The notes: generated by a model from the sequence alone, not told the origin. 64,000 nt of DNA from a virus (IMGVR_UViG_3300027861_000012:32380-96379), one strand, 5' to 3'. Counted from the stretch's first letter, positions 1,543-57,475 are shown. Made by a program: numbers and translations.

Positions 1543-2066
1543 ACTGGACTCCTATATCCGTTTTGTCGGATCTCACTATCAAAGAGACGCGACACTAAAT
1601 CGAGAGCTTCGGGATCTTCTTTGTAGAACTCGCTGAAATCCAGGTCACCACGGTACGGGGAGCTATTCATTTGGGGTATGTCTGCCGGAACTAACCCTGC
1701 CCAAGTTAGCAACCAATCAAACTCATGCTGAATCTCTTCGTAGCGTATGATGTAGTTGGCATGGAGGACGTGTCCAAACAGTCTTCCTTCGGGGCAATAC
1801 TTCGTGTGGGTGTACCACTCCTCAATGAAATCGTTGAGTGACAGGTTTCCACGATCCATCTTACGCCACCATGAAACCATCACGTCATAGGGATTACGAA
1901 TCGTGGTGGCAACCATCCAACCAGCCGGTGGTCGTTCTTCAAGACCTGAGTGATGACTACCAACCATCCTTGCCCCAAACCGATCCATGAGCACCCCCGC
2001 TGTGGCATACGAAGCCGTGCGAGGGTGCGCCAGGTAGATCAGGTGGTGGTCTTCAAGGATATACAT
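1539..2066 (-). CDS. sulfotransferase-family protein
   Basis: 5'-PSB-like AHPRTASYATAG near the N-terminus and 3'-PB-like IRNPYDVMVSWW (RNPxDxxxS), typical of PAPS-dependent sulfotransferases. 175 aa. Confidence 0.55.
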   Translation of the reverse strand: MYILEDHHLIYLAHPRTASYATAGVLMDRFGARMVGSHHSGLEERPPAGWMVATTIRNPYDVMVSWWRKMDRGNLSLNDFIEEWYTHTKYCPEGRLFGHVLHANYIIRYEEIQHEFDWLLTWAGLVPADIPQMNSSPYRGDLDFSEFYKEDPEALDLVSRLFDSEIRQNGYRSPV

Positions 2067-3388
2067 CAGACCTGTATTTCCTCAAGCATGTCGATCTTGT
2101 AGCGTTGTGGTCCAGCCGCGTCCACCGAAGGACGCCGCAGCCGTACTGGAAGCCGCCAGGTGACGCCATACTTTTTGTTGACACCATGCAACAACTGCGT
2201 GGGCTCGGTGAAGCCAGAGAAAGCATTGAAAGCATACGGGTCAGTGGCTACCCAGGCTCCGTTGATCATCAACTCGCCGTCCATCTCCATGGTTGTCCCT
2301 GGACGATGGAAATGCCCACAACAGTAATAGCGAATCGGCGGCCCAGCCATATGGCGATCCAGACCCATGATCCGTCGCTGGCGTCGTTCAAGACCGTACC
2401 ACGGGATGCCAAGGTTGCTTCTGATATCGTCGCCGTGGAAGACACAGAAACCAACACCACCGATATCAAGGTTGATCGAGAACGAATTCGGAATAGTGAA
2501 GTCAACATTCCCCATGTCGCCACAATACTGCTGGGCAGTCTTGGCAATCAGGTAATCCCAGTTGTCGTGAGCACCATGGTAGTTCTTCTTGTTTGACCGG
2601 CGGCCGTGGTTACCAGGCACGTAGACCACATTCACTTGCTCGAAATACTGCGCAAGTTCTCGGAACATCAGAGCATGAAGCTGGCCAATGGCCAGTGTGT
2701 TCTTGAAGATGTTCTTGAAATAGGACCGCTCAACGTGACCATGAATCTCGCCGCTGGTATGATCACCATAGCACAAGATGGTGATGTCAGGGAAATGGAA
2801 CTGTGGCTTCAGGGTTACCTGAGTCCATTTGATCACGGCATCAACATACCGCTCGGCACGAGCCACACTGATCGGGAAGTTGTATTCTTCCAGGTAGCCC
2901 ACCATCTCAGGGCTCACGACTTGATCATGGTGACCATCGGAGATATGCATCACAAGATGCTCAGTAACGTCCCCGTGCTTCCGGTTACTGGGAAGCTTAA
3001 TTGCAGAAGGCAGGGGTCTCATCGGGACGATCTTGTCCTCAAGTTCATCCGCGATGGCAAGGAATAATCCATGTTCCTTAGCAGCCGCCTTCAACGCCCG
3101 TTTGGCATCGTTGCGCTCAACTCGTAGATGCTCAACTTCGGATTGTAGTTCCAGGATTTTGTCGTCAGTCGGATCAAAGGACTCTGGTGGTGGACCTGTT
3201 CGCTTGCTGGTAGTTGTGGGGCCAATGTCTGCATGAGACCGACCACACTGAATGTCAGAAACATAGCTGCGGCTGATCTTGTACTTCTTTGCAGCCTTGG
3301 TCTGGATCATCCCTGCATTCAAGTCGGTCTTCAATGCAATGATCTGATCGTCCGTCAGCAGTTTTCGATTTGCCATGGGGAGCCTCAT
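2066..3388 (-). CDS. calcineurin-like metallophosphoesterase with N-terminal HTH and coiled-coil region
   Basis: Metallophosphatase motifs GDHTSGEIHG, VPGNHG and CGHFHRPG. The N-terminus (MIQTKAAKKYKISRSYVSDI) looks like a helix-turn-helix. 440 aa. Confidence 0.7.
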   Translation of the reverse strand: MRLPMANRKLLTDDQIIALKTDLNAGMIQTKAAKKYKISRSYVSDIQCGRSHADIGPTTTSKRTGPPPESFDPTDDKILELQSEVEHLRVERNDAKRALKAAAKEHGLFLAIADELEDKIVPMRPLPSAIKLPSNRKHGDVTEHLVMHISDGHHDQVVSPEMVGYLEEYNFPISVARAERYVDAVIKWTQVTLKPQFHFPDITILCYGDHTSGEIHGHVERSYFKNIFKNTLAIGQLHALMFRELAQYFEQVNVVYVPGNHGRRSNKKNYHGAHDNWDYLIAKTAQQYCGDMGNVDFTIPNSFSINLDIGGVGFCVFHGDDIRSNLGIPWYGLERRQRRIMGLDRHMAGPPIRYYCCGHFHRPGTTMEMDGELMINGAWVATDPYAFNAFSGFTEPTQLLHGVNKKYGVTWRLPVRLRRPSVDAAGPQRYKIDMLEEIQV

Positions 3389-3442: not shown

Positions 3443-4537
3443 TCAAGCCCGATCTTGCGCATCTTTCCGAGCATAATAGTCCGCGCTGACAATTTTCACG
3501 ATCATCCGACCACATAGTACAGATGACCATTGTTCTTTCACGGGGGTTACTACACACCCCTCTCGGCCCTTGTATTTGCAAGTGATGTCCGCCGGGCTCG
3601 CTGCCATGGTCGGACCATCACAAAGGGACATGAGGCTTTCATCGAACACACCCTCATAAAGGAGGGGGACTGTCGGGACATTATGTTTTGTGGCATACGC
3701 CTTGACATCTGCCCAGTCCATGTACTTCATGTGCCCTGGCTGCCCGGCCATGATATCGAACAACCGATAACCCCCTCGTTCGGGGGTCCCATAGTCCATA
3801 TCCTGTACCTTGCGGCCATAGATTTCGCCATAGGCTACAACCGAGCAGTTGGCCTCTCTGAGGGCGATGTCGGTGAGCATGTTCTGCATCTCTCCGGTCA
3901 AAGGAAGCCAATACAGGGACGCTCTGGAGCCAGAACGGGCATCTGAGAGGGCTTTCACATTGGTCTTGTGTGACCCACACATGAACTCGGGCCCGTCTTC
4001 CGTGTAGACCAAGCCCACCCGGCTGTTGGTGCCGTGCATCTTCTCGGTGGCTCGCACGATGGTTCCTGGCGGAATCGCACCGGGGTTGGCCCGTAGATGC
4101 TGTATATGTGTATAGACCGGGAACAACAGGTTCTCGGGTCGAGCATCCCCGGCAGTAAGCTCGGGTGGCGGCTCGTACTTGATCCCGGCGTAGACCTCAG
4201 TGACATCGGCCCCAAAGGTTAGGTCACCTTCGTAGGGAATCACGAAGCCAAAGGACGCCTCCCCACGGATACGGATCGCACCTACCCTACACTGAGATTT
4301 CTGAGAATCACCAGGGTAGATGGAATGCTTGAGATACGCACGCACACCCAGCGATTCAGCGGTATCTTCTGGGATTAGCATGTCAGGCGGGAAGAACACC
4401 ACTTTGTCCTTCACCTTATGGAGGCCCTTTTTCACGACCAACTGAAAACCGAGTACCTGGATGATGTCCAGGCGATCTGCATTGGGGTGGTCTTCGACTT
4501 CATTGACGCGCTCAACAGTGATGAGTGTCTTGCTCAT
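3443..4537 (-). CDS. RNA ligase (Rnl2-like nucleotidyltransferase) with N-terminal tRNA-binding OB domain
   Basis: N-terminal VNEVEDHPNADRLDIIQV... matches the CsaA/Trbp111/EMAP tRNA-binding OB fold (HPNADKL signature). The central EKMHGTN matches the lysine-adenylyltransferase motif I KxHGTN of T4 Rnl2. Confidence 0.65.
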   Translation of the reverse strand: MSKTLITVERVNEVEDHPNADRLDIIQVLGFQLVVKKGLHKVKDKVVFFPPDMLIPEDTAESLGVRAYLKHSIYPGDSQKSQCRVGAIRIRGEASFGFVIPYEGDLTFGADVTEVYAGIKYEPPPELTAGDARPENLLFPVYTHIQHLRANPGAIPPGTIVRATEKMHGTNSRVGLVYTEDGPEFMCGSHKTNVKALSDARSGSRASLYWLPLTGEMQNMLTDIALREANCSVVAYGEIYGRKVQDMDYGTPERGGYRLFDIMAGQPGHMKYMDWADVKAYATKHNVPTVPLLYEGVFDESLMSLCDGPTMAASPADITCKYKGREGCVVTPVKEQWSSVLCGRMIVKIVSADYYARKDAQDRA

Positions 4538-21452: not shown

Positions 21453-21493
21453 AAAAAAGAAAGCACACCCCGTATCTCGTTTTGGGGGTGTGC
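21453..21493 (-). terminator. rho-independent terminator downstream of the Ro60 gene
   Basis: Read on the minus strand: a 10-bp GC-rich stem AGCACACCCC/GGGGTGTGCT with a 12-nt loop, followed by TTCTTTTTT. Confidence 0.5.
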
Positions 21494-21523
21494 TTATAGC
21501 CCGTGTAGAGGGGCTGAAGTAAT

Positions 21524-23106
21524 TCATTCGCGGGCAAAGTCAGCCATGATCTTCGGGGCACTGGCATCGAAGCCAACGACATCGAGCATCCCTGCATCGT
21601 TGGGGTCCGCGATGGAGATCTCGTTGGCGGTGAAGGCCACCACAATCAACTTGGCGTTGATACCCATCTTCCGGCGGTAGTCCTGTAGTGCTACAGCAGG
21701 GTGTACGCTGTTACAGTTGGTCTCGCTGTCCGTGTAGATCACGAACACATCAGTCGGAATCTTTTCCTGGGTCGCGTACCTCATCGGAAGTGAACAGTCT
21801 GTGCGACCAAATGGGAGGCCGGTGATCATGCGATTCACTTCAGAAAGCGATGTTCGCTTGGTAACGGGCAACGAGTGGAAGGTATTGCAGAACCCATAGG
21901 TCTGCACTTGGTCCTCAGATCGAACCAAAGTAGCAGCCATACACCCGGCAGCATCCCGTGGCGTCAAGTGCGTGTTGTTGATCGTGCCATAGGTCATGGA
22001 CCCAGACACATCCACACCCAGCAGATAACGCTGACCAGTGGGCTCGACGTACCCAAAGGATGCATCGTAGGCGTCTTCCAGGGAATCCAACACCTGGGTT
22101 ACAGGGCTCCAACGGAGACTGCCACGAACACCACAACCTTGTTGATAGGTGGAGAGTGCCAGCAGCACGCTGAATGGATGTACCCGAGCACGTTGAAGCT
22201 GCTCTCGGTCCCGAAGCTGGGCACATACCTGCTTCACTGCTGAGGTGTTGGGCTTCAGAACGTCGATGCTGGTCATCTTACCCAAATTCCGGATCAAAGC
22301 CGTCATAGGCATCCGCAACTCAAGCATGGCTTCCCAGACTCTTGGGTCATTGAGGAACTGAGTCGGGATGTTCTCACGGACCAAGCCGTAGCTCCGAACC
22401 AAGGCGGCAACCTCTTTCGAGGTGGTAGCCAACTTGACCTTTTCGACGCCTTCCAGTGTGTGGTTGGTCACCATCGGGTAATCCCCACCCGGCTTCCGCA
22501 CGGCGTACCCAAGGATCTGGTTGATCTCGGCGTTGTTGGTGTGTGCATGGCAACACCGAAGCACGTCACGATGAGACCAGCCACCGCGTTGCTTGTACTT
22601 CGTAATCTGAGCGGCCAGCCGATCAGGTCGGTGATTCAGATACCAGTTCGAGACGGCACGCTTCAAGGCACGGCCCCAGCCACGGAATTGAGTCACTGCA
22701 TCCACGAATTGGAACAGGTGTGTTCCGATTCGACATACTTCGCTAAGGCGCGGCAGTGCAATGCTACTGTAGCGGGCATCGGCACACAACATAGCCAAAC
22801 AGAAAATGGCAGGGTCATTCTTTGCAGCCCGGCCTTCGTCACTGATCTGCACAATGCGGTCCACGGTTCGCTGTGCATCCTCAGCAGCACAGATGCGAAG
22901 AGACTCAGCAGCTTCGATAGTGAGCTTCTGCTCACCGGCATAATAGGTTCCGCCTTCACACCCAAGAATCAGAAACCGATCCAAGCGTGTCCAGCAATCA
23001 ACTTCCCAACCAAAGCCACCGCCGCTGTTGGCGACTTGGTTACTACCGACCAAGGGGCGCGTCTGAGGAGTGTTACTTGGCGAAAGTGTGCGTGCGTACC
23101 TATTCA
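21524..23106 (-). CDS. rsr: Ro60 (TROVE domain) ribonucleoprotein orthologue with C-terminal vWA domain
   Basis: N-terminal TROVE block NSGGGFGWEVDCWTRLDRFLILGCEGGTYY matches Ro60 (NSAGGYAWKVDDWQRL..GSEGGTYY). C-terminal vWA MIDAS region LLGVDVSGSM. Start set at MNRYARTL, which has AAGGAG 6 nt upstream. Confidence 0.8.
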
Positions 23107-23375
23107 TCGTCTTCTCCTTGAGGAATTCGGTCCTGCTCGATCCAAAGTTCGTAAAGACAGCACAGGACATTGTCAGAAAAGTGGCCGTGTTCGCTATCGA
23201 CATTCGCATCCGACAGTTGTTTGTAAATGTCTGCCAGAACATCATCGCTCGTAGGCGACCCATCAACGTTTGGAGACAAATCAACGATAGCTCGTATGAT
23301 AATCGGAAGCTGAGCTTCCAATCTGGCTTTGGCAGCCAGAAGCTCTTCCATCAATGCATCGGCGACATCCATCAC
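23100..23375 (-). CDS. hypothetical small acidic protein
   Basis: 91-aa ORF ending 7 nt into the rsr start. Confidence 0.3.
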   Translation of the reverse strand: MMDVADALMEELLAAKARLEAQLPIIIRAIVDLSPNVDGSPTSDDVLADIYKQLSDANVDSEHGHFSDNVLCCLYELWIEQDRIPQGEDDE

Positions 23376-23411: not shown

Positions 23412-23798
23412 TCAGTTGGCATAGGAGACTTCCTCTGTTTGAAATAAGATAGGGGCATCCGGTGGATTGATTCCATCGGGCGGGTCTACCGGAAGAATGG
23501 TTGCCCGCAGACTCTTGATCTCGGCCAGAAGTTCCAATTCACGAACATGCCATGCAGAGACCATCCTGTCGCGGCAAATCTCGTTGTTGTCCAGTATTGT
23601 TTGAAGCTCGTCAATCTCGTCGATTTGGCTTTGGACCACCTCGGCCTGCATGTCAACGACATCTTCCAGGCGGTAGATTTCCTCTTGCCTGATATCAAGC
23701 AACTGATCACAGACACCAACTCGCCACTCGATGGACCAGATAGTTCCACTCGTGGCGAATACCGCGATGCAAAGAATCCAAATCGCTACATTCTTCAT
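23412..23798 (-). CDS. membrane-anchored coiled-coil protein
   Basis: N-terminal TM helix MKNVAIWILCIAVFATSG, then heptad-like acidic region. 128 aa. Confidence 0.4.
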   Translation of the reverse strand: MKNVAIWILCIAVFATSGTIWSIEWRVGVCDQLLDIRQEEIYRLEDVVDMQAEVVQSQIDEIDELQTILDNNEICRDRMVSAWHVRELELLAEIKSLRATILPVDPPDGINPPDAPILFQTEEVSYAN

Positions 23799-23934: not shown

Positions 23935-24663
23935 TCACCCACTGTTGTCTTCAAAGGCTTGTATCAGGCCAGGTGTCGTGATCGGTGGCAATGCCAACTC
24001 CCCTTCGACGATGTCACCTGGAAGTCTATCTAAGGTAGCTAGGAACGAGTCCTTCTCACCACGGAGCCGATCCAGCAAGTCGGGTTTCACGATCTCTGCC
24101 CCTTCACCAAGCATGGTCACATACAGAGCCATCAGATGCTCGTCACCCACCAACGTGGGACACGCATTGCGATGATTGTGCATGTGAACAAAATTCAGTT
24201 GGTTCTGGATGGTAATAGGTTCCCGGCCCATCTTGTGGATGACAATCGTATCGTCATGAATCAATGGGGCCACGACCCTATAGTAAGTGTCACGATCAAA
24301 CTCACATTCCTCGAATCGCACCAATCTGGCGTTCATAAGCTCAGAATTGAACTTACCTAGTTTGCGGCAAACTATCTGGTTGCCAAACACCACTGCATCG
24401 TGGCCAAGCAGAACTTCCAAAGCATCCCCGAGAATTGACTTACCGCTCGACTGCGGCCCCCACAGAAACAAATAGGGCACCCTCAGCCCTTGTATGACAT
24501 ACTTCACCCAACGTTGCATGTACTCCATACCAGTGACACGGTTCCGAATAGCCCAGTCATTGGCAGCAAGAGCGGTGTTCAATTCACCTCCAGCAATGTG
24601 ACCCAGGATGGTATCCCAGGATGGGTGTCCACTGTCTTCTGGCATACTTGTCTCCGGGTTCAA
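23935..24663 (-). CDS. stand-alone primase C-terminal/D5-like P-loop NTPase domain protein (paralogue of the C-terminal region of the 35607-38375 prim-pol helicase)
   Basis: LFLWGPQSSGKSILGDALEVLL...NSELMNARLVRFEE is nearly identical to LFLWGPQNSGKSILGDAIELLV...NSELATTIFARLEE in the large primase-helicase. Confidence 0.6.
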   Translation of the reverse strand: MNPETSMPEDSGHPSWDTILGHIAGGELNTALAANDWAIRNRVTGMEYMQRWVKYVIQGLRVPYLFLWGPQSSGKSILGDALEVLLGHDAVVFGNQIVCRKLGKFNSELMNARLVRFEECEFDRDTYYRVVAPLIHDDTIVIHKMGREPITIQNQLNFVHMHNHRNACPTLVGDEHLMALYVTMLGEGAEIVKPDLLDRLRGEKDSFLATLDRLPGDIVEGELALPPITTPGLIQAFEDNSG

Positions 24664-24737
24664 AATGTAGCACGGCTACGAGCAAAGAGGTAGGAGTGGG
24701 GGTTTCATGCTTCCAATTACACCACCGAAGACGCTAG

Positions 24738-24812
24738 GCGACTCCGACCGGGACTCGAACCCGGACCAAATCATTTCAAGTGATAATCCACTCCAAATCG
24801 GCTCGTAAGCCA
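24738..24812 (-). ncRNA. tRNA-like element (T-arm + 3' acceptor strand + anticodon-like hairpin; no matching 5' acceptor strand)
   Basis: Minus-strand sense has a perfect T-arm CCGGG-TTCGAGT-CCCGG, then TCGGAGT-C, and a hairpin ATCA-CTTGAAA-TGAT. No ACTCCGA partner was found. Confidence 0.25.
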
Positions 24813-24910
24813 TGTATTGGGACCATGAGCCGAGCCAGTCTTTCGACATACTCCCGACTCACAGCCTTGTGTTTTGACTCCGAACAAATGTCAAACATGG
24901 GAACTATGCT

Positions 24911-24941
24911 ACTGGCGCTCTACCTACTGAGCTACCCCACG
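24911..24941 (-). ncRNA. tRNA 5'-half-like fragment (acceptor 5' strand + canonical D-arm)
   Basis: Sense CGTGGGG-TA-GCTC-AGTAGGTA-GAGC starts 2 nt after the encoded CCA of the upstream element. No canonical anticodon or T-arm follows contiguously. Confidence 0.25.
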
Positions 24942-24942
24942 C

Positions 24943-25016
24943 TGGGCGTGAGAGGAGGAATCGAACCACCGACATCCAGTTCCTTTGATAACCCATATCC
25001 TACGGCTCAAAGTCAA
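24943..25016 (-). tRNA. probable tRNA with encoded CCA (anticodon not resolved by eye)
   Basis: Sense 3' end ...GGTGG-TTCGATT-CCTCC-TCTCACG-C-CCA (T-arm with one mismatch). The 5' boundary is estimated from length only. Confidence 0.3.
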
Positions 25017-25062
25017 GGAGCACCGAGGGACTCGAACCCTCAACGGTTGACCATCAGTGCTC
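25017..25062 (-). ncRNA. 46-nt tRNA minihelix-like element (7-bp acceptor + perfect T-arm, no D or anticodon arms)
   Basis: Sense GAGCACT-GATGGTCAACCGTT-GAGGG-TTCGAGT-CCCTC-GGTGCTC-C. Acceptor pairs 7/7 including one G-U. T-stem pairs 5/5. Confidence 0.3.
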
Positions 25063-25398
25063 ATGTGCGGGCAAGTTTGCGGTGAACGGGTTTTCATGTG
25101 CTCGATAACCGTAAACCAGCGGCCCGCTTGTAACATGCGAGCAAGTTGTTTGCCGAGGTCATGATCTCCTAAAGATAACCCTCAGCTAGCGGCTCGCGTG
25201 TACCTCTGTAAACTTGTGCGAACAAGTTGGTTGGCCAAGGGGGAAATCTTAATTGGATAACCCTTGGCTAATCGGCTCGCACGACTCTTCGGTGATCACT
25301 TCACGACGCTCTCCTTCAGGTAAGTGTAACGTTTGATGAAGCTCTTCACTTAACTATTCAATTCTACCATACTTTGTTTCGGAAGTCAAGGACCAATT

Positions 25399-25677
25399 TC
25401 AAGATTTCTTTTTGGGGAACTTAGACCCCTCAGTTCTGGGCCTCAATGGGTCGGATCGAACCTCATAGGCCCAACCCTCGGCCTCGTTACCCTCAAGCTC
25501 CATCTGAGGGTCTGCATCCCTCATCAAGGCTTCTGCCTCATCCATGGTGTCACAGTCGTTGTGCTCAAAGAGGTCGATGATTACCAAAGCAACCGTCTGG
25601 CGTTCCCCTTCAGGAATGTGCGGTTTGATCGCATCCCACAGGTCCTCGGCCAACATTGATCCACTTCCCCATCCCAT
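25399..25677 (-). CDS. hypothetical acidic protein
   Basis: 92-aa ORF. Confidence 0.4.
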   Translation of the reverse strand: MGWGSGSMLAEDLWDAIKPHIPEGERQTVALVIIDLFEHNDCDTMDEAEALMRDADPQMELEGNEAEGWAYEVRSDPLRPRTEGSKFPKKKS

Positions 25678-26351: not shown

Positions 26352-26385
26352 GCTTCACATCCTCTCATTCAGGGTTGGTAGTAAG

Positions 26386-26458
26386 TAGGGCGTGGGGGAA
26401 TTGAACCCCCGTTGCCGGGATGAAAGCCCGGTGTCCTAGTCCACTAGACGAACGCCCC
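26386..26458 (-). tRNA. tRNA-Glu (anticodon TTC)
   Basis: Hand-folded cloverleaf: acceptor GGGGCGT/ACGCCCT, D-arm GTCT..GGAC, anticodon stem CCGGG/CCCGG with loop CTTTCAT, T-arm GGGGG-TTCAATT-CCCCC, discriminator A. Confidence 0.8.
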
Positions 26459-30745: not shown

Positions 30746-30840
30746 TGGCAACACTGGTCGGACTCGAACCACACGCACCCGGTTCCTCACAGTCCACAGA
30801 CCATCTAACCGGCGCTCTACCAACTGAGCTACAGTGTGCC
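30746..30840 (-). tRNA. tRNA-like gene with encoded CCA and an oversized anticodon arm (possible intron or pseudo-tRNA)
   Basis: Sense GGCACACTG-TA-GCTC-AGTTGGTA-GAGC-G-CCGGTT[22 nt]AACCGG...GG-TTCGAGT-CC..CAGTGTT-G-CCA. D-arm canonical. T-stem imperfect. Confidence 0.4.
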
Positions 30841-31322: not shown

Positions 31323-31386
31323 AGGTACCTATGGGAATCGGACCCACGTCGCCCTTCACGGGACTCTACCATTGAGCTATAGTACC
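31323..31386 (-). ncRNA. anticodon-arm-less tRNA-like element (acceptor + D-arm + T-arm; only 15 nt between D- and T-arms)
   Basis: Sense GGTACTA-TA-GCTC-AATGGTA-GAGT-CCCGTGAAGGGCGAC-GTGGG-TCCGATT-CCCAT-AGGTACC-T. It lies 4 nt downstream of tRNA-Met. Confidence 0.4.
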
Positions 31387-47512: not shown

Positions 47513-47922
47513 TGCATGATCCCTTCAAACTCGATTTGAATCGTCTGACGCTCGTGACCAGGGAAGAATTCAGCACGCGCAGGTGTCGTGAACTCAAATG
47601 GGTCATTTACGAGATGCCCAACCCAGACGCGGTCAAGATGGTCAGTTATCCGCATTTTGGAAGCAAAATAAGAGCGGACAAAGTTTCGCAACTCAAGAGC
47701 CTTCATTCGACTCATTGAGAGTTCCCAAACCAAACGTCTTCGGAGACCCTTGGTCTTCACGTAGGTATATAGCGTCCCGTCCATGGCACGCTTGGTGATA
47801 ACCTCATCAGTGAGTTCCTCGCTGTCCCCAAGCTGGGGATTCGGGAAGACTGACGTTGTTTGAATACTGGGGTACGGAGCTTCCATGGTTATCATATCAA
47901 CACCTCCCCAATTGAGTTCCAA
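47509..47922 (-). CDS. hypothetical structural-module protein
   Basis: 137-aa ORF. Its stop overlaps the next start by 4 nt. Confidence 0.45.
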   Translation of the reverse strand: MELNWGGVDMITMEAPYPSIQTTSVFPNPQLGDSEELTDEVITKRAMDGTLYTYVKTKGLRRRLVWELSMSRMKALELRNFVRSYFASKMRITDHLDRVWVGHLVNDPFEFTTPARAEFFPGHERQTIQIEFEGIMQ

Positions 47923-50900
47923 ATTACAAGAGTTCTGAATCGGTCACCAGTTTGTGCCGACTCATAGATGATCTCTCGATTCGCTCCATCTGACCGCATC
48001 CGAGAAATATGGTGGATGTTGTAGTGGCCCATATACAGGTAGTCATCGGCCGGATTGTAGACAATGTGGCCGATCTGATCTGCCGTCCCAGAGCCAGCCC
48101 ACAGAACCGAATGGTTAGAGCCATCAGTATCGGCCACATGAATATCCGCATCCGTGTAGCTTGACCAGAAGATTTTTTGCCGCACAGTATCACCTGTGAT
48201 TGAGATCGGATAATCTCCGGTGTTTCCGCTACCAGTTTTCCATACAGCAAAATTGCCGCCGTCACGATCACATTTCCAGATGATGTCACTACTGCTGCTA
48301 ATGTAAATCTTGTCTTCAGTGGATTGATACCAGATGCCTCGAACACTACCGCTAAGGCTTCCATTCGCCACGATCTGTGTCGGACCACCGACACCACCAG
48401 CTTGCATTGAATAGATCCCATAACCATTCACATAGAAGTACACCCTATACCGGGCTTCATCAACACAGAGACAATACACCCCTGCGGGTGCCGTATAGAC
48501 TAGGGTACTTGCACCCGTGGGATTCCTGTTGTAGATGGTTCCTGTTGTGTATTCAGCCCACACCATTCTCCGCGCGGCATTGAACATTCCAGCAGCATTG
48601 AATACCTGACTATGAACAGGGTTATTAGTCTCCATGACCAAGTATTCACCGTGCATGTCCATCTTATGGAGATCGTTACCCCCATCCTCAAAGGCAATGA
48701 TACGACCCTTGACTACAGACCGCGAGGGCAGCCATTTCTCGTTGAAGCTGATGGCATCCAGGTTTCCACCGGTGCTTGTCCACAACAGCGGAATAGTTCC
48801 CACGGGACCCACAGTGGCACAGGATATACCATACACACCACTGGTGTAGATGAGATACATGAAGTCATTCGCAGGTGAGTATGTAATCGGCCAGGCACCG
48901 CCATTACCGAAGTGTGAGATAGCACCACCGGTATAGGCACACCGGTAGTATTTGAAGTCAGTGTTGTCACACCAGATGATCCGTCGATTCGTATTATCAA
49001 TACACATGTAAGATGGGAGTGTGAGTCCAGATTGCAGCACAGTGGGGCTGGAACCATCGTATCCACAATAGACGATACGGCCATCTGCTCGTGAGGTCCA
49101 ATAGACCCTTGCGGATTGGCGCTCGTAGTCAATCGACCAATAGTCCTTGTAGGTATATGCACTGTTGACGATGATGCGTTCATCAGAACCATCAAGGTTA
49201 CAGCGTCGAAGTTGGTTATCAGGTGTCTTCACGTAGAATAGATAACCCTTGTCCGGAGCCAAGCAAATCCATTTCACAGTATTGGTGCCGTCAAGTCTGT
49301 TGTCAATGATCATCTCTGGTCGTGTACCATTGAGTCGGCATCGCATGATTGCATTCACGACGTTGTCTACCCAGTAGAACCAGCCATTGATATCATCAAC
49401 CTTGCAATCGGAGGCAGCAATCCCACGACCGGTCATGTAGTCTGCCGGTGTACCCCAGGCACGATCCTGCATTCTAATCCCGTCAGTGGTTCCGGTATCC
49501 ACAACGAACAGCCTATCATCATGTCCATCGGGGCAGGTTCCTGGACTCCCACCGCCACCAATACCATCAAGGACGCCAACACCATAGAAAGGTCTGGTGG
49601 TCGCAGACTCATCAACCACAGTCTGGAGGTTGGTCCCGTCACCGTACATTCGCCAGCAATATCCTTGGTCGTCACTCATGTACAGCCGATTTTGTTGGTG
49701 TGACCATTCAATGTCCGTCACATAGCCTGTGTAGATAGTCGTGAGACTTGCGCCTCCCGTAGTTCCACTACGTATTCGATTACCACTGCCAAAGCTATTG
49801 TCCTCAGTCCAATATAGCATCCCATTGATGTAGTCAATGGTCAATTTCCGGGGCTCGCTGAGTGCTGCCAGAGTATGGACAGCCGTTTTACTGGTGCCAT
49901 CGAAGTTCATCGAATAGATGATGTCGTTGCCCTTTTCGGCGACATACAGCTTCTTATTGATTGGGTCCACAGCTAGGCCAGACGGTAATGAAGCCGTTCC
50001 CATACTGGTTTGATTGGTGCCGTCCAAATCAACCCGCTCGACTGTGTAGCCCACATAGTCACTGTACCATATGTAACCATGCTCGGCACACACTGTAATC
50101 ACGTATGGAGTGGGGATACCAGTCTTGATGTACTCAAAATCTTGACCATCAAGACTGGCGCGTGAGATCGCATTATGGACCGTACTGGCCCAATAGATGT
50201 GGTTACCAGATTGCTGCACAGAACAACCCCAGACGCCGTTCTGTTGTGTTCTAGCAAGGAAGCGTGTATGGGCCCCACCATGATTTGTGGCCCACCAGCC
50301 TGATGCCCAAGCAGTTAGTCCATTATCCAAGAGGTAGATTTGAGGATCAATGAAGTCAATGCCGATGTTGTTCCCGCGATCTATGCATATTGGATTGGCT
50401 GTGGGTACCACAGTGCTGCTCGATGCGTCACAGTAAGCAATTTGGGAATCAAAGAAGTAGCCGGTGGTGGTAACATTAAGATACCAGGCCGACTGAGCCA
50501 AACACTTGAAGCCATCCATCTCGATACCACCAACATAGAAGGTATCACAGGTGATCGTGCATCCGTCCATGAGATCAAGAGTGCCGTACACGTCTTTGTT
50601 CCCAAGAGCCACTACACCAGGGCTATTGATGGTTTGCCCGTTTGGATCAAAGGTACCATACCGACCATAGTAGTTGGCCGGACGTATCGGGCCAGTGAGG
50701 GCAACGTCCTTATCATCACCTGTATCCAGGACACAGTTGGTGTTGGTCGTGTTCAAACCGTTGTACCACTCATCGTCGCTATCGAGTATTAGCGACCAGT
50801 CCATATTCTCGCGTCCACCATGGATGATACTGATGCTGTCATCATGGGGACTGGAGTTCTTACCAGACTGCCATTTGGACCATTCTCGCATGTAGCCATG

Positions 50901-53900
50901 GAACCAGTAGGCTGCTGTTGTGCCCACAAAGTTACCCAGGCTGAAATGATCGCTGGTGTCAATGGCCCCAACCGCTGCACAGGATACAGTGCTGTCAAGA
51001 ACGCCATCAATGTACAGATAGATATTGTTGTTGTTACGCTGTACCTGGATGTGACGCCAGCGGTCGTTACCTGTGCTAAAAAGAAAGGTAGCAGTGCTAG
51101 CGAAATCCATTGTGGCTCCAGCGCCGTCCTTCATAGCAAACCGAAGCTTTCCTGGATACGTAGCATGATCATACTGGTACATTAGCAGACAGAGGGAGTT
51201 GTTCGCGTTTATCCAATTGGAATTACCTACTGCGGTGGCAAAGATCACTTCGTAGTCAAATGCATTGAGCTTACCCGCTGGTTTAATCCAGCCACCGATA
51301 GACCATTTGGCCGTGCTAGAACCACCTGGGAACGGTAGGGGATCATCCAGTTCAAATTCTGCGGAGGTACCGTTGAAGTAGTAAGATGGCCACTCGCCTT
51401 GAATCACAGTATCCGTTTGTTGGTTGAGGAAGTCCACCGTGCCGCTATCATTGTCGTCTGTGTCCAGATAAATGTACCCGGTACCCTTGGTCCAGGTCAC
51501 GGTACCACTACCTGATTTGGCATCCACTACGTCCCCGCCAATGTGCCAACGAACATCTCGACTTGAACAATTGACAACAATGTTGACGTTGGACCCCGCC
51601 AGTGTGTCCCAAATGAGGTCACCAGCAACGTCGATGGTCACGGGTTGATAAGTGGTGCAGTCAATGGTGAGTGTATTCGATGCGGTGCCGTATGCTTCAA
51701 ACTGAAGACTACCATTCGAGAACACATAATCACCTGCCCGGAATGGGAAGGTATGAGCCCCTCCACCGTTGGAGATGATGATGAACTCACCGCACTCGTA
51801 GGTACCTGGTACAAAGACCGCTCCTGCCAAAGTGCTGTAGCATCGCACGGTAGCAATTGAGAGGGTACCACCAATGTCAGATATTCCTGCTGCGGACCAG
51901 AAATGCAGATAGCCCGCCCCAGTAATGGTGCCGCCAGTATTCAAATCAAGTGTGCTGCCATTAAGCATTGAGAAACCCTTACCAGCATTGATTGTAAGCG
52001 AGCTACCATTACCATCAACAATAAGAGCGGTACCAACATAGAGGTGGCCAGCAATCATTGTGGTTGATGCAACTCCGTATACGTTCCCGATATACAGGTT
52101 TGCAATGGTGGAGTTTGGAGCCCGGAAAGTCATCGTGGCCCCTGCGCCATACATCTGCACGGCATTCATTGTTTGTGTACCGGTATGGGCCGAGTCATGA
52201 TAGTTCCCAGTGAGGTACACGGAACTATTTTGAGTGAAGGTACCGCTACCGGCCAGGGTCATATGTGTGGTCCAAAGGTTTCCACCGGTTTGTGAATAGC
52301 TGCCATTCACCAGATTGAATGTGTTAGCAAATCCAAGGTTGGTACAGACAGCGGTAAGGGTCCCACCTGACTTGTCCACGCGGCCCGCTTCATAGGTCAT
52401 GTTAGCGGGGCAAGTAAGTGTTTGCGCACCCGAGCCGTTGAAGGTCATAGTACCTGAGCCAGCATCCCAAGTAACCGTGCCGCCAGCCAGATTCTGAACC
52501 AGAAAGTCGCCGCTGATTTCATAATTCGGATTACCAGTGTCACCTTCAATGGTAAATGTGCCGTCCCCAGTGTAGGTACGGAATTCAACATTCTTGAACT
52601 GGTAGGTTCCAGCAGAAGGTGTCCAATACACAGTAGGATCGCTACTGGTATATGTACTTCGGAAATAGAACTTCCCGGAAAGACCGGTATAGTCCCCGGC
52701 CACAAAGACGGCAGTCGGGTATGTTGGGTGGAAATTCACATAGACATTTGCACACGCCAAAGAACCGTCAAGTAACAGAATACCACACCCATTTCTTGGG
52801 AGATATGGATACAAATAACCTGCGCCATTGATTACACCCGTAGAGTACAGATATGTCTTCGCCGAGTAGTATGGGATGAGATAGGTAGACAGCGTGAGCG
52901 TACCGTACACCTTGAGATTACCGTCATAGACACGCACTGTGTCATTAACCTGGGTGATGCTTGCTCCGGTATCAATGGTGATGGAAGTTATGTAATTACC
53001 AACGCCACCAACAGCTTCTGTCTGAAGTGTTTTGCCAGAACCCTTCATGACCAAGACACCAGTATTGCGAGTGATGTTTGCTGTGAGACTGTTAGAGTTG
53101 TCGAAGTTTCCATAGACATTGAAGTAGGACGTTGCGTCACCCATCAGCAATGTACCTGTTGCATTGATGGTTACATCACCCCATACCGTCAGAGACTTCT
53201 TGGCATTATTGAAGTCGGCCACACAGCCATTGATGTCGAGATTCCCACCAACCGTGGAGTCATCCCAGATATAGACTACTTTGCCACCGGTTTTGGCAAA
53301 CACTGTGTCTTCAATCTGGTGAGTGCTCGTACTGAAATAACCTTGGTCAGCACTTCCGTCCATTGTGATGGTACCAGTTCCAGCCGTATATGTAAGCCCG
53401 TTACCGTCCACCAGGAAATGGCGACCCACATTGATATCCGGGTTGTTCACATTATTGACATGCAGTGTGCCTGATGAGGTCTCTCGGAAATACAAACTGA
53501 AGAACGAGTAAGTGCCAGAATTGAGTTTTATCTCCCTGGCGGTGGCGTTACCGACATAGACATCAGTCAAGGTGATCGATGAATAATCAGCCGGGATCAA
53601 TACTGCGGTACCCATTGGGTAATGGAATCTCAGGTTGGTACATGTGACAGTGGCACTGGCACTGTAGGCTACCATACCACCACCAGTGTGTGGATGATTG
53701 ATAAAGAGCCCGGATACACCACTGATATTGGCCGTGGCAGAGACAGTCATCTGGCATTTCCATGCCGAAATTAGCCAGTCGGTAAGAATCATAGTCCCAT
53801 CGATAAGACAGGTGGGGGTCCCTGTCTCTGCACCAACTTGCCCATAGCCATCGTCTACCGTAATGGTAGCAGTCGATGTGACCCATAGATGGAAGACATA

Positions 53901-55129: not shown

Positions 55130-57475
55130 TTATGCGAAGATCACTTGACCGGTGCTGTCTTCTAGTACGCCCAAGTTGCCTCTAAAATCAATGATCGGAC
55201 TGTTGGTAGTGGTGTCAACAGTGAGGTTTCCAGTACCATAGCAGCGGAATATCACATTGCCAGTGTAGATATGTGTGCCAGAGTCATAACGGATTCCCCG
55301 GTCATCGGCACCAATAGCACGAATCCTCATTTCAGCACAAGCAATGGTACCAGGTGCAAAGGTATTGGTCCAAGCAAGGGGCTCAGAAATGTATCCGATA
55401 GCTGTGTCCCAAGTTCCGTCCAGTGTCGTGATACTAGATGCATGGACATTCATGTAACCCGAGCCGGTTACGGTGCCGCCCACATTCAAATCCAAAGTAC
55501 CAACAAGAATTGCAAATCCGTTGTTGCTGGTAAGCGTACCATCAATAGTTACGGTACCAGCATTCGCCCCAAACCACCCTGTGGTGACTGGGATCGTATA
55601 TGATCCAGTGATCCACAGATTTCTGCAATACGCATCAACGGTAGCATCCAGAGTCTTGCCAGAGCCAGTCAGTTTCAGTACCGATGTTTCAGGGGCGATA
55701 GTTCCGCAGCCAACCCAATTGACGTTACCGCTGCATTCCCAAGTGCCTGAGCCCATGGTGAGCGTGTCACCCAGATTGGTGAGCGTGAAGTCTCCGTTGA
55801 TGGTCACATTGTAACCGTTGGCATCGAAATTCCCGTCTTGAATATCAAGACTGGCACAACAAAGATTTGCGGTCAAGGTCAGTGTACCACCAGACTTGTT
55901 GACAACTACGTTTCCAATACAGTCGCTAAAACCAATATCCTGATCGTCGCTTCCGCTAAAGGTGATGGTATCACTTGCACCTGGCGTCCAATACACTACC
56001 CCGGTTGAGTCATTGACTTCTGAATAGTCTCCAGTGAAAATGATGGTCGGGTTGTTGGTGCAATCAAAATAGAGATCATCCGCGCCCTGGGTTGTGGCGA
56101 CGATGTCCCCAAACGTGAAGGTGCCTGCTGCAAACTTCAGTGTCGAGTCACCGGCCCAGGTGGTGCGGTCCCTGATATAGAGAATACCAGTGAGTCCAGA
56201 GTAGTCGCCTGGATCAAAAACTGAAGTGGCTTCCGGGTCATCAATGTAGAGATTGGCACAAGTGAGCGTCCCATCGTTTCCTACAATGCCATGGGCGGCG
56301 TACATCCCGTACATGGAAATCTGCCCAAGGCCCGTTACAGTACCATTGATGTCAAGGTCAGCATTGAAGTATCCGGTGAAGGACAGCCCACTGCCGAGAG
56401 ACAGACTACCGTCTACCGTGGCATCACCATCATACTGAAGGTGACCTGTATCCATGGTGTATGAACCTGTGATCCAGACATTCTCGAAGTAGTTTCCAGA
56501 ACCCGTGGTGGGCCGCGAGAGAGTCTTGGTGGCTCCTGTGAGCTTCAGTGTGCTGGTCTCTGCTGTGTGTGCATCGAGTTCCTGGTCATCAAAGTCGCCA
56601 GAGACATCCCACGTTTGATTCCCGAACAGAACTGAGTTGTTGGCCAGCAGTGTGTCTCCCCGCAGGGTGAGCCCATAGGTGTCAGCATCGAAGGTTCCTT
56701 GGTAGACCTTGAGGCCAGCACAGTTGATACTGGCTGTCAACGTGGCTGTGTAAGCGGTTCCATCGCTGGTGCCATTGTTGGTTACAGCAAAGGTGTCACC
56801 AACTACTGAGTAGTCGCCACGCTTCATCGGGCAACACCACTTCTGGTTCCCTGTATCCACGACTCGGGCATCAATACCGCCAGCAAGAGCAACCCTGTCC
56901 GCTTTGGCTAGGGCTGAATCCCATTTGGCCCAGTTACTCATCTCACCTTCATACCAGTAGATGTCCAGAGCCGTTCGGACTCCAGCATACATGGCACCGG
57001 CCCCGTTCACGGCATCAACATTGCCGATTGGTGTTGATCCAGTTTCACGCCCGTCTACATACAACTTGAGTGAAGTACCAGTTCGTACAAATAGGATGTG
57101 TTGCCACGCACCAAATACGAAGTCGCCCAAATCGGTATTGATGTTGTCCGTACCATCATTCCAGTATGCCCAGATTTTCAGCGTGCTCATATTGAGGTAT
57201 GGAAGAATACTGGGATGCGTTGGATAGTTCCAACTGAAGAGAATTGCGGCTGCTTCACCGTTATCTACCGGTTTGATCCAACCACCAAAGCTCCAATCAG
57301 CATCCGGGAATGTCAGGTCCGCGTGATCCGCGAATGACACATAATCACTGAGCCCGTTGAAGGACCAGCCTTCACGGAGATTCACACTCACCGGATCTGT
57401 TTCCAGCGACCCGTGATCAATGCTTTTGTTTTCTGCGCCTGTAATCCAAATCGACATGGTTATTCCTCCACCCAA
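55130..57475 (-). CDS. large fibre-like protein (781 aa) with N-terminal LamG-like domain and beta-helix-like repeats
   Basis: WSFGGWIKPVDNGEAAAILFSW...LKLYVDG is the LamG/pentraxin pattern. The rest is T/G/N/D-rich repeats similar to its neighbours. Confidence 0.75.
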   Translation of the reverse strand: MGGGITMSIWITGAENKSIDHGSLETDPVSVNLREGWSFNGLSDYVSFADHADLTFPDADWSFGGWIKPVDNGEAAAILFSWNYPTHPSILPYLNMSTLKIWAYWNDGTDNINTDLGDFVFGAWQHILFVRTGTSLKLYVDGRETGSTPIGNVDAVNGAGAMYAGVRTALDIYWYEGEMSNWAKWDSALAKADRVALAGGIDARVVDTGNQKWCCPMKRGDYSVVGDTFAVTNNGTSDGTAYTATLTASINCAGLKVYQGTFDADTYGLTLRGDTLLANNSVLFGNQTWDVSGDFDDQELDAHTAETSTLKLTGATKTLSRPTTGSGNYFENVWITGSYTMDTGHLQYDGDATVDGSLSLGSGLSFTGYFNADLDINGTVTGLGQISMYGMYAAHGIVGNDGTLTCANLYIDDPEATSVFDPGDYSGLTGILYIRDRTTWAGDSTLKFAAGTFTFGDIVATTQGADDLYFDCTNNPTIIFTGDYSEVNDSTGVVYWTPGASDTITFSGSDDQDIGFSDCIGNVVVNKSGGTLTLTANLCCASLDIQDGNFDANGYNVTINGDFTLTNLGDTLTMGSGTWECSGNVNWVGCGTIAPETSVLKLTGSGKTLDATVDAYCRNLWITGSYTIPVTTGWFGANAGTVTIDGTLTSNNGFAILVGTLDLNVGGTVTGSGYMNVHASSITTLDGTWDTAIGYISEPLAWTNTFAPGTIACAEMRIRAIGADDRGIRYDSGTHIYTGNVIFRCYGTGNLTVDTTTNSPIIDFRGNLGVLEDSTGQVIFA

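What the first reader, a model, noticed from the sequence alone, without database searches (positions are those of the whole stretch)
21524..23106. Ro60/TROVE-vWA (Rsr) orthologue in a viral context, with candidate non-coding partners among nearby tRNA-like elements
The N-terminal TROVE signature (NSGGGFGWEVDCWTRL...GCEGGTYY) and C-terminal vWA MIDAS make this a Ro60 orthologue. Bacterial and mycobacteriophage Rsr proteins work with Y RNAs. Some of those (YrlA-type) contain tRNA-like modules with acceptor, D and T arms but no anticodon arm. Within 10 kb this window carries exactly such elements (31323-31386; 25017-25062) plus RNA repair enzymes. A Ro60 RNP that uses these tRNA mimics would link the observations. 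No canonical Y-RNA stem with a bulged Ro-binding helix was identified by eye next to rsr. The gene is followed by a clean terminator at 21453-21493.
Basis: partly seen in the sequence, partly recalled or inferred. Interest (0 to 1): 0.75.

Follow-up and report, generated by a model that had tools for sequence, protein, structure and literature searches.

The report
Phage Ro60 gene with Y-RNA array

Summary
It matches Xenopus Ro60 at E=1e-122, has TROVE and vWA_Ro60 domains, and ends in a strong terminator.

In fact, a sigma-70-type promoter 1.6-2.3 kb upstream on the same strand drives five candidate Y RNAs (24674-25282). All five share a lower stem with a bulged C (GRGC-C-G...UUGYYC), an upper stem and a UUAUC motif.
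- Three are short ~65-nt stem-bulge hairpins.
- Two are YrlA-type, with a permuted tRNA-like module.

It is a tRNA-like acceptor/T-arm minihelix wedged between Y3 and Y4, probably an RNase P/Z processing signal and not a Ro partner. The element at 31323-31386 is an unrelated tRNA-like gene. No RNA repair enzyme lies within 10 kb.

A model built from the short hairpins finds about 200 similar elements. Almost all lie on the rsr strand beside rsr, in 160 phage, bacterial and archaeal loci. Several pass Rfam's threshold for nematode stem-bulge RNAs, which are Y RNA homologues.

Verdict: new member of a known kind. No expression or binding data exist.

The parts
25361..25389 (-). Sigma-70-type promoter of the operon (TTGACT, 17 nt spacer, TG-TAGAAT)
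   Evidence: scores it 10 of 12 with an extended -10. Equivalent promoters precede the arrays in L003, L004, L072 and L001.
25216..25282 (-). Y1: short stem-bulge Y RNA candidate (lower stem GUGCGAGC/GUUCGCAC, bulged C, upper stem GCCAAGGG/CCCUUGGC, UUAUC)
   Evidence: Fold z -5.1. Alignments A1/A2. Pair counts. R1 73.9 bits.
25137..25197 (-). Y2: short stem-bulge Y RNA candidate
   Evidence: R1 71.8 bits.
25063..25127 (-). Y3: short stem-bulge Y RNA candidate. Its 3' tail ACAU runs directly into the minihelix.
   Evidence: R1 76.4 bits.
25017..25062 (-). tRNA-like minihelix: 7-bp acceptor GAGCACU/GGUGCUC, connector GAUGGUCAACCGUU, T arm GAGGG-UUCGAGU-CCCUC, discriminator C. No D stem or anticodon arm. 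Inferred RNase P/Z processing signal between Y3 and Y4.
   Evidence: Fold z -3.7. Rfam mascRNA-like alignment at 20.6 bits, not significant. Conserved in L004 and L072, where the stems differ but stay paired.
24875..25015 (-). Y4: YrlA-type Y RNA candidate. It has a terminal stem with a bulged C, an upper stem and UUAUC. Its permuted tRNA-like module is a T arm, an acceptor-like hairpin and a D arm UAGCUCAGUAGGUAGAGC.
   Evidence: Rfam YrlA 29.3 bits, E 3.7e-4 locally, matching model positions 1-114. Orthologues in L004 and L003 hit YrlA at 31.7 and 28.9 bits. RNAalifold gives 40 pairs, 12 with compensatory change. Fold z -2.95.
24821..24866 (-). 14-bp perfect hairpin between Y4 and Y5 with no U tract. 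Possible RNase III site (inferred).
   Evidence: Fold -24 kcal/mol, z -3.7.
24674..24811 (-). Y5: second YrlA-type candidate. It has a terminal stem GGCU-ACGAGC-(C)-GA, an upper stem GGAGUGG/CCACUCC, UUAUC, a V hairpin, a T arm CCGGG-UUCGAGU-CCCGG, an acceptor-like hairpin and a degenerate D arm.
   Evidence: Fold. R1 22.6 bits, E 0.026 in 725 kb. Rfam tRNA 22.9 bits over the V and T arms. Same layout as bacterial examples. No orthologue found in the relatives.
23935..24645 (-). 236-aa P-loop NTPase (DUF5906 / P4-primase C-terminal-like), first coding gene of the operon
   Evidence: Conserved after the array in L003 at 33% identity. Role in the system unknown.
23412..23798 (-). 128-aa ORF of unknown function within the operon
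   Evidence: No Pfam or PHROGs hit. Called as a gene in L005.
23100..23375 (-). ~90-aa ORF (91 codons in the translation used here) whose stop overlaps the rsr start. Conserved immediately upstream of rsr in the clade.
   Evidence: 36-39% identity to L003 and L004 ORFs. No family hit.
21524..23107 (-). rsr: Ro60 orthologue, 527 aa, TROVE ring plus vWA with MIDAS
21453..21494 (-). Intrinsic terminator of the operon

Best explanation
This is a phage-encoded Ro60 (Rsr) ribonucleoprotein system organised as one operon. A sigma-70-type promoter at 25389-25361 starts a transcript whose first ~680 nt are non-coding. That leader carries three short stem-bulge Y RNAs (Y1-Y3), a tRNA-like minihelix, a YrlA-type Y RNA (Y4), a long hairpin and a second YrlA-type Y RNA (Y5). 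The coding part follows: a small NTPase, two small ORFs and rsr, ending at the terminator.

Shown:
- the gene order;
- the conserved sequence and structure of the five RNAs;
- their co-occurrence with rsr in many genomes.

Inferred:
- The precursor is cut by host RNase P and RNase Z at the minihelix, and perhaps by RNase III at the hairpin.
- Rsr binds each Y RNA at the lower stem with the bulged C and protects it.
- The distal modules (simple loops in Y1-Y3, tRNA mimics in Y4-Y5) gate the Rsr cavity or tether Rsr to host partners such as PNPase or tRNA-handling enzymes. This would redirect structured-RNA decay or quality control during infection, as described for D. radiodurans, Salmonella and Thermus phage phiLo.
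For: Protein:
- Full-length match to Xenopus and human Ro60 and to D. radiodurans Rsr.
- TROVE and vWA_Ro60 domains.
- K170, R174 and H187 carry the same numbering as in Xenopus and are invariant in the family alignment, as is the MIDAS motif D366-S368-S370...T436...D460.

RNAs:
- The three tandem hairpins share invariant GCCG...GGUUAUC...AACUUG...CGC.
- The proposed structure is 85.6% paired against 32-47% when slid, and 6 pairs change on both sides.
- A descriptor of the lower stem alone, plus UUAUC at offset 10-12, finds exactly five sites in the 64-kb window. All five are in this array, against about 0.04 expected by chance (my estimate).
- Y4 is the best non-tRNA Rfam hit (YrlA), and its orthologues in L003 and L004 hit YrlA independently. 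Twelve pairs are compensatory.
- The same layout (promoter, short Y, minihelix or hairpin, YrlA-type) occurs in relatives whose Rsr is 69-71% identical.

Association with rsr:
- Model R1 gives 111 hits in phage loci and 92 in prokaryotic loci. Of these 203 hits, 200 are on the rsr strand and lie next to rsr.
- Independently of the model, 263 of 535 lower-stem matches on the rsr strand carry UUAYC at the fixed offset, against 7 of 253 on the other strand.
- On the array, the - strand scores 72-76 bits and the + strand 6-9 bits.

Processing:
- The minihelix abuts the Y3 tail with no gap and ends 1-3 nt before Y4.
- In Gordonia phage Sixama and in two myxobacterial loci, a Y-like element ends 0-3 nt before a tRNA.
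- 202 of 208 tRNAs near rsr are co-oriented with it.

Precedents in the literature:
- M. smegmatis YrlA and YrlB are cut from one precursor upstream of rsr, and RNase P cleaves YrlA (PMC4201824).
- Phage phiLo Ro60 binds two upstream Yrl RNAs and host PNPase (PMC12135203).
Against: - There are no expression, end-mapping or binding data.
- None of the five RNAs reaches an Rfam gathering score. YrlA scores 29.3 against 69, and Y1-Y3 do not hit Y_RNA or sbRNA models at E<=10.
- The Y4 T stem has a U-U mismatch, and the Y5 D arm is degenerate.
- Y5 has no orthologue in the three relatives.
- The window RNAs read GCCG followed by A, C or U, not the GNCGAA consensus.
- Three ORFs (1.6 kb) separate the array from rsr.
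- The processing role of the minihelix rests on position alone, and in L003 it is replaced by a plain hairpin.
- The effector (PNPase or another) is unknown.
Confidence: 0.8

Rival explanations
1. One reading: the Rsr partners are the anticodon-less tRNA-like elements at 31323-31386 and 25017-25062, which bind Rsr as tRNA mimics.
For: - Both are real tRNA-like structures without a normal anticodon arm.
- YrlA RNAs do contain tRNA-like modules (PMC4201824).
- The minihelix is conserved in L004 and L072.
Against: - Neither element has the bulged lower stem, the GCCG motif or UUAUC, and neither is found by R1 or by the lower-stem descriptor.
- 25017-25062 is flanked without spacing by two elements that do have them.
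- 31323-31386 sits 3 nt after tRNA-Met and 8 kb from rsr. At the syntenic place in L176 there are two complete tRNA-CAU genes.
Confidence: 0.08
2. The array is a cis-acting structured leader of the operon mRNA (stabiliser, attenuator or nuclease barrier), not a set of released trans-acting Y RNAs.
For: - There is no terminator between the array and the first ORF.
- The array and rsr share one promoter.
- No end-mapping data exist.
Against: - The same elements occur upstream or downstream of rsr, in variable numbers and at variable distances, in about 160 loci. That fits independent RNAs tied to the protein, not a leader.
- tRNA-like modules and abutting tRNAs imply excision.
- Known Y RNAs of M. 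smegmatis are cut from such a precursor.
Confidence: 0.07
3. The Y RNAs act mainly as decoys or sponges for host factors (host Rsr, RNase P/Z, the CCA-adding enzyme, tRNA-targeting defence nucleases), independently of the phage Rsr.
For: - The array has five copies plus a minihelix with a tRNA elbow.
- rsr loci are often embedded in tRNA arrays.
- The phage carries other odd tRNA-like genes and an RNA ligase.
Against: - The Y elements are tightly linked to an intact rsr, on the same strand, across genomes.
- The Ro-binding signature is the most conserved part of them.
- There is no direct evidence for any decoy target.
Confidence: 0.05

Closest known systems
Bacterial and actinophage Rsr with YrlA/YrlB Y RNAs (Chen et al. 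2014, PMC4201824; Rfam RF02553)
   Same: - An Rsr gene with two or more Y RNAs within about 2 kb on the same strand, cut from one precursor.
- A 5' motif related to GNCGAAN0-1G.
- YUAY at the start of the inner module.
- A permuted tRNA-like domain (V, T, acceptor-like hairpin, D).
- RNase P involvement.
   Different: - Five Y RNAs instead of two.
- The window motif is GAGCCG followed by A, C or U, closer to vertebrate GGUCCGA.
- Scores are below the Rfam YrlA threshold.
- A free-standing tRNA-like minihelix sits between Y RNAs.
- The host phage is a ~178-kb uncultivated phage, not an actinophage.
Thermus phage phiLo Ro60 with Yrl1/Yrl2 (PMC12135203)
   Same: A phage-encoded Ro60 with Y-like RNAs directly upstream. 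Its proposed role is to capture host PNPase.
   Different: - phiLo Ro60 is only about 17% identical to Xenopus and Deinococcus Ro60. The window protein aligns to them over its full length at E=1e-122 and 6e-115.
- phiLo has two RNAs, and no tRNA-like modules are reported.
Metazoan Y RNAs and nematode stem-bulge RNAs (Rfam RF00019, RF01656; PMC4726728)
   Same: - A lower stem with a single bulged C and an asymmetric loop on the 3' strand.
- An upper stem ending in GG followed by UUAUC.
- A similar size for Y1-Y3.
- Related phage and bacterial elements pass the RF01656 gathering score.
   Different: - These are bacterial-type promoter-driven polycistronic RNAs, not Pol III genes, and have no oligo-U/La tail.
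- The window's own Y1-Y3 do not reach the Rfam scores.
- Homology versus convergence on the same Ro60 surface is unresolved.
tRNA-like processing signals such as mascRNA at the MALAT1 3' end, and tRNA-punctuated transcripts
   Same: A tRNA-like fold without a decoding function, placed exactly at the junction of two RNAs so that RNase P and RNase Z would define their ends.
   Different: - The similarity is in architecture only.
- The Rfam mascRNA match is not significant (20.6 bits against 42.5).
- Cleavage is untested.

Membership tests
Ro60 / Rsr (TROVE + vWA) | TROVE (HEAT-repeat ring) domain followed by the Ro60-type vWA domain, over the full length | tested here: met
   Pfam TROVE 3e-37 and vWA_Ro60 3.6e-61. 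Residues 14-525 align to Xenopus Ro60 residues 6-534 at 1e-122, and to D. radiodurans Rsr at 6e-115.
Ro60 / Rsr (TROVE + vWA) | MIDAS motif DxSxS...T...D in the vWA domain | tested here: met
   D366-V-S368-G-S370, T436 and D460 are invariant in alignment A3.
Ro60 / Rsr (TROVE + vWA) | Conserved basic and histidine ring residues in the TKYKQRxGWSHxDxLRxxH segment. From memory, K170/R174 lie on the outer RNA-binding surface and H187 in the cavity of Xenopus Ro60. | tested here: met
   K170, R174 and H187 are present with the same numbering as in 1yvp and are invariant in A3. Their functional roles are recalled from the literature and were not checked here.
Ro60 / Rsr (TROVE + vWA) | NCBIfam equivalog cut-off for Rsr (NF041674, 900 bits) | tested here: not met
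   495 bits, E 2e-148. The cut-off is tuned to close bacterial orthologues, so this shows divergence rather than a different family.
Ro60 / Rsr (TROVE + vWA) | Binds Y RNA and misfolded RNA | not testable with these tools
   Needs RIP or gel-shift experiments.
YrlA-type Y RNA (RF02553) | Reaches the Rfam gathering score (69 bits) | tested here: not met
   Y4 scores 29.3 bits (E 0.0096 in 21 kb, 3.7e-4 in 0.8 kb). Orthologues score 31.7 and 28.9 bits. Y5 gives no hit.
YrlA-type Y RNA (RF02553) | Permuted tRNA-like domain: (V), T arm, acceptor-like hairpin, D arm, closed by a stem | tested here: met
   - Y4: GGUGG-UUCGAUU-CCUCC, CUCAC-loop-GUGGG, UAGCUCAGUAGGUAGAGC, closed by CUGG/CCAG.
- Y5: V hairpin, T arm, hairpin with a CUA loop, weak D arm.
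YrlA-type Y RNA (RF02553) | 5' Ro-binding motif GNCGAAN0-1G and YUAY at the start of the inner module (PMC4201824) | tested here: inconclusive
   YUAY is met (UUAUC in all five). The motif is a variant: GCCGUAGG in Y4 and GCCGAUUUGG in Y5. The consensus of 104 related elements is GCCG-n-AAG, which fits GNCGAA.
YrlA-type Y RNA (RF02553) | Encoded within about 2 kb of rsr on the same strand | tested here: met
   The array lies 1.6-2.2 kb upstream of the rsr start, on the same strand and under the same promoter.
Metazoan Y RNA / nematode sbRNA (RF00019, RF01656) | Lower stem with a single bulged C plus a 3'-strand bulge, an upper stem, and a loop starting with UUAUC | tested here: met
   Y1-Y3 show this. 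Column statistics over 104 related elements: bulged C 98%; U, U, A, U, C at 100, 100, 92, 88 and 99%.
Metazoan Y RNA / nematode sbRNA (RF00019, RF01656) | Reaches the Rfam gathering score | tested here: not met
   The window's Y1-Y3 give no hit at E<=10. Related elements pass RF01656 (GA 38): L001 at 44.6 bits, and L127, L122, L142, L159, L108, L110 and L035 at 38.1-42.5 bits.
Metazoan Y RNA / nematode sbRNA (RF00019, RF01656) | Individual Pol III genes with a 3' oligo-U tail | tested here: not met
   The RNAs form a polycistronic array behind one sigma-70-type promoter, and no U tails follow the stems.
tRNA | Complete cloverleaf with an anticodon arm | tested here: not met
   ARAGORN calls only tRNA-Glu and tRNA-Met. 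The minihelix lacks the D stem and the anticodon arm. 31323-31386 has a 3-bp, 5-nt stump.

The most novel reading that the evidence does not exclude
The short Y RNAs of this phage belong to a large, uncurated class of prokaryotic and phage Y RNAs. This class shares the full metazoan Y/sbRNA signature: bulged-C lower stem, the same spacing, and an upper stem ending in GG-UUAUC.

If so, the Ro60-Y RNA pair was inherited or transferred as a unit, with phages as plausible carriers. UUAUC would then be a determinant of the Ro60 RNP, not a metazoan feature specific to DNA replication. This would contradict the published view that bacterial Y RNAs are not homologous to the vertebrate clades.

A second new point is that these RNAs are routinely embedded in tRNA arrays, or punctuated by tRNA-like minihelices, for processing.
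Probability: 0.35. Interest if true: 0.7.

Novelty: new member of a known kind. Interest (0 to 1): 0.45.

Why it matters
Phage-encoded Ro60 is common: 353 GenBank phages carry it. Its RNA partners are almost never annotated, and in mycobacteriophage Alice one appears to be annotated as a protein gene.

This locus gives a compact, testable system: one promoter, five Y RNAs of two types, a candidate processing signal and the protein.

The model built from it recovers about 200 Y-like RNAs beside rsr in phages, bacteria and archaea. That would help annotate the poorly known short (YrlB-like) Y RNAs. It also bears on whether prokaryotic and animal Y RNAs share ancestry.

Tried and rejected
- The Rfam gathering scan of the window found only tRNAs. 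No Y_RNA or sbRNA hit on Y1-Y3 appeared even at E<=10.
- My first hairpin boundaries were wrong and gave weak folds. They were corrected.
- A DNA pattern scan of viral contigs gave one true relative and one chance match inside a coding region.
- blastn against GenBank phages found no close relative of the locus.
- The single-protein scans of viral and metagenome contigs gave few close relatives.
- The MAFFT alignment of the five short hairpins put Y1 one column out of register in the upper stem. I used the majority register.
- R1 with filters off does not recover the long Y4 and Y5. They rest on the descriptor, the folds, Rfam and comparison with relatives.
- No RNA repair enzyme was found within 10 kb.
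- The anticodon-less tRNA-like gene at 31323-31386 is not conserved in a relative.
- PHROGs gave no structural-protein hits for the large ORFs at 42-57 kb. The viral context therefore rests on phage-type DNA metabolism genes and on relatives found in IMG/VR.
- Stein 2005 and the two Wolin reviews are not held in the library, so residue roles are from memory.
- orf90 is conserved only within the clade and is not a general Rsr partner.

Full report
**1. The observation**

The most likely start is the ATG at 23107, 6 nt after AAGGAG.
- Pfam finds TROVE (3e-37) and vWA_Ro60 (3.6e-61).
- phmmer against solved structures aligns residues 14-525 to Xenopus Ro60 (1e-122) and human RO60, and residues 3-526 to D. 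radiodurans Rsr (6e-115).
- K170, R174 and H187 keep the Xenopus numbering. They are invariant across 13 diverse family members, as is the MIDAS motif D366/S368/S370/T436/D460.
- The terminator is real: an 11-bp stem, -19.2 kcal/mol, z -4.6, followed by UUUCUUUUUU.
- The exact protein occurs on contigs of up to 177,656 bp.
- A relative lies in an IMG/VR viral contig.
- The neighbouring genes are phage-type nucleotide and DNA metabolism genes.

**2.

A permissive Rfam scan gave YrlA as the best non-tRNA match. It lies at 24885-24991 on the rsr strand, scores 29.3 bits and covers the full model, but is below the gathering score of 69.

Reading 24600-25420 shows a TTGACT-17-TGnTAGAAT promoter followed by five elements with one shared plan:
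- a lower stem ending in GRGC;
- a bulged C;
- G paired to U;
- an asymmetric internal loop;
- an upper stem ending in GG;
- then UUAUC;
- on the 3' side, (A)ACUUG or UUUG followed by the lower-stem complement.

Y1-Y3 (25282-25063) are ~65-nt hairpins. Their alignment has invariant GCCG, GGUUAUC and AACUUG. The structure is 85.6% paired against 32-47% for slid partners, and 6 of 18 pairs change on both sides.

Y4 (25015-24875) has the same stems plus a permuted tRNA-like core: T arm, acceptor-like hairpin, then D arm. This is the order described for YrlA (PMC4201824).
- Its orthologues in L004, L072 and L003 give 40 consensus pairs, 12 of them compensatory.
- Those in L004 and L003 hit YrlA on their own.

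Y5 (24811-24674) has the same stems, a V hairpin, a T arm, a hairpin with a CUA loop and a weak D arm. R1 finds it at 22.6 bits.

A descriptor that uses only the lower stem, plus UUAUC at offset 10-12, finds exactly these five sites in both strands of the window. About 13 random stem matches, each with a 3/1024 chance of the motif, give roughly 0.04 expected (my arithmetic).

**3.

25017-25062 is a real, stable fold (z -3.7). It has a 7-bp acceptor stem, a conserved connector GAUGGUC...GUU, a canonical T arm and a discriminator, but no D stem or anticodon arm.
- It starts right after the 4-nt 3' tail of Y3 and ends 1-3 nt before the Y4 stem.
- L004 and L072 have it at the same place. The T loop and connector are identical there, while most stem positions differ yet stay paired.
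- L003 has a plain hairpin instead.
- It lacks every Ro-binding feature.
- I infer that it is a processing signal: RNase P would make the Y3 3' end, and RNase Z or a similar enzyme would release Y4.

Support from other loci:
- A Y-like element in Gordonia phage Sixama ends immediately before tRNA-Arg.
- Y elements end 2-3 nt before tRNA-Thr in L148 and L173.
- 202 of 208 tRNAs near rsr in 37 of 80 loci are co-oriented with it.

31323-31386 is a cloverleaf with a 3-bp stump for an anticodon arm, 3 nt after tRNA-Met.
- It has no Ro-binding stem.
- The syntenic site in L176 carries two complete tRNA-CAU genes.

No RNA repair enzyme lies within 10 kb. A DraRnl-type RNA ligase is 17 kb away.

**4. 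Breadth of the RNA class**

The covariance model R1 was built only from the five short hairpins of this clade.
- It found 111 matches in 87 phage loci plus the window, and 92 in 80 bacterial and archaeal rsr loci.
- Of these 203 matches, 200 are on the rsr strand. Nearly all lie in the intergenic DNA just upstream or downstream of rsr, often 2-4 in tandem.
- In the window, R1 hit nothing outside the array.
- In 104 aligned matches the bulged C is 98% conserved, the following G 100%, and U-U-A-U-C 100/100/92/88/99%. The stem interiors vary freely.

Because R1 itself rewards UUAUC, I repeated the test with the lower-stem descriptor alone. On the rsr strand, 263 of 535 matches carry UUAYC at the fixed offset. 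On the other strand only 7 of 253 do.

The consensus GCCG-n-AAG fits the published GNCGAAN0-1G motif, and UUAYC fits the published YUAY. These are therefore Y RNAs of the known bacterial kind, including the poorly characterised short (YrlB-like) type.

Eight such elements pass Rfam's gathering score for RF01656, a nematode stem-bulge RNA family. Six are bacterial and two are from phages. Nematode stem-bulge RNAs are Y RNA homologues, and both they and vertebrate Y RNAs have a loop UUAUC (PMC4726728).

**5. Mechanism**

Shown:
- the operon layout;
- the conserved RNA architecture;
- the tight strand and position linkage to rsr.

Inferred from established Ro60 biology:
- Rsr binds the lower stem of each Y RNA.
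- The distal modules gate the cavity or tether Rsr to host enzymes (PNPase in D. radiodurans, Salmonella and phage phiLo).
- The outcome is altered decay or quality control of structured RNA during infection.

The effector and the benefit to the phage are unknown.

**6. Novelty**

Phage Ro60 is common: 353 GenBank phage records carry it, under the annotation 'Ro-like RNA binding protein'. Phage YrlA and Yrl RNAs are published. This is therefore a new member of a known kind.

The less ordinary points are:
- five Y RNAs of two types under one promoter;
- the tRNA-like minihelix between Y RNAs;
- how closely the short RNAs resemble the metazoan pattern.

The last point is the basis of the more novel reading, which I rate at about 0.35.

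Noticed in passing
L072 2280-3950 (IMGVR_UViG_3300007764_000001), also L009: A close relative has the promoter, short Y, minihelix and YrlA-type RNA. About 180 nt later comes an rsr ORF that covers only residues 217-527 (319 aa). The N-terminal half of the ring and the small upstream ORFs are missing. This could be a deletion variant, a pseudogene or an assembly artefact.
   Followed up: partly
window 30749-30838 (-): A tRNA-like gene (Rfam tRNA 36.1 bits) with normal acceptor, D and T arms. A 7-bp stem and a 23-nt insert replace the anticodon loop. ARAGORN does not call it.
   Followed up: no
window 31323-31386 (-) and L176 3992-4148: The anticodon-less tRNA-like gene sits 3 nt after tRNA-Met. 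Its T loop reads UCCGAUU instead of UUCGAAU. A relative (Band 7 protein 61% identical) has two complete tRNA-CAU genes at that place, and they are not similar in sequence to it.
   Followed up: partly
L116, L159, L107, L122, L177 (Sixama) and others: rsr and its Y RNAs are often embedded in large co-oriented tRNA gene arrays. L116 has about 15 tRNAs within 2.5 kb upstream, and Sixama has 13 downstream. Across 80 loci, 202 of 208 nearby tRNAs are on the rsr strand.
   Followed up: partly
L178 2873-2947 (Mycobacterium phage Alice, JF704092.1 about 127230-127304): A Y-RNA-like element (GGCCGAAG...GGUUAUC, R1 14.4 bits) lies directly upstream of rsr, inside the annotated CDS gp219 (174 nt). That CDS is probably a misannotated Y RNA.
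   Followed up: no
window 3443-4537 (-) and 2066-3388 (-): A DraRnl-type RNA ligase (TIGR02306 130 bits; Pfam RNA_ligase plus the PHA02142 OB fold) lies next to a 440-aa protein with a weak metallophosphatase match. This is a possible RNA repair pair, 17 kb from rsr.
   Followed up: partly
window 23100-23375 (-); L003 5684-5980 and 4264-4557; L004 4551-4832: A ~90-aa ORF with no family hit overlaps the rsr start codon. It is conserved in that position in the three clade members (36-39% identity, duplicated in L003) but not in other rsr loci.
   Followed up: partly
L072 2405-2480 and L004 3570-3645: The leader of the relatives' arrays holds another structured element, upstream of the short Y. 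It contains GGUCCGAUGUAGUGAG (L072) or GGUCCAAUGAAGUGAGG (L004), which resemble the vertebrate Y RNA 5' motif, and a T-arm-like CCGGGAUCGAGUACCCGG. The window has no counterpart.
   Followed up: no
L051 1298-1413: A wcaG RNA motif (Rfam RF01761, 56.2 bits, above its gathering score) lies between two short Y RNA matches in a phage rsr locus.
   Followed up: no
window 26385-26458 (-); L003 2671-2743; L004 2264-2336; L072 1101-1173: A tRNA-Glu(UUC) gene is conserved 0.4-1.3 kb upstream of the Y RNA array, on the same strand, in all four clade members.
   Followed up: no
window 47892-55118 (-) and 57460-63993 (-): Two giant ORFs of 2408 and 2177 aa lie here. They were not scanned against any family library. 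Their neighbours (540, 955 and 781 aa) have no PHROGs match.
   Followed up: no
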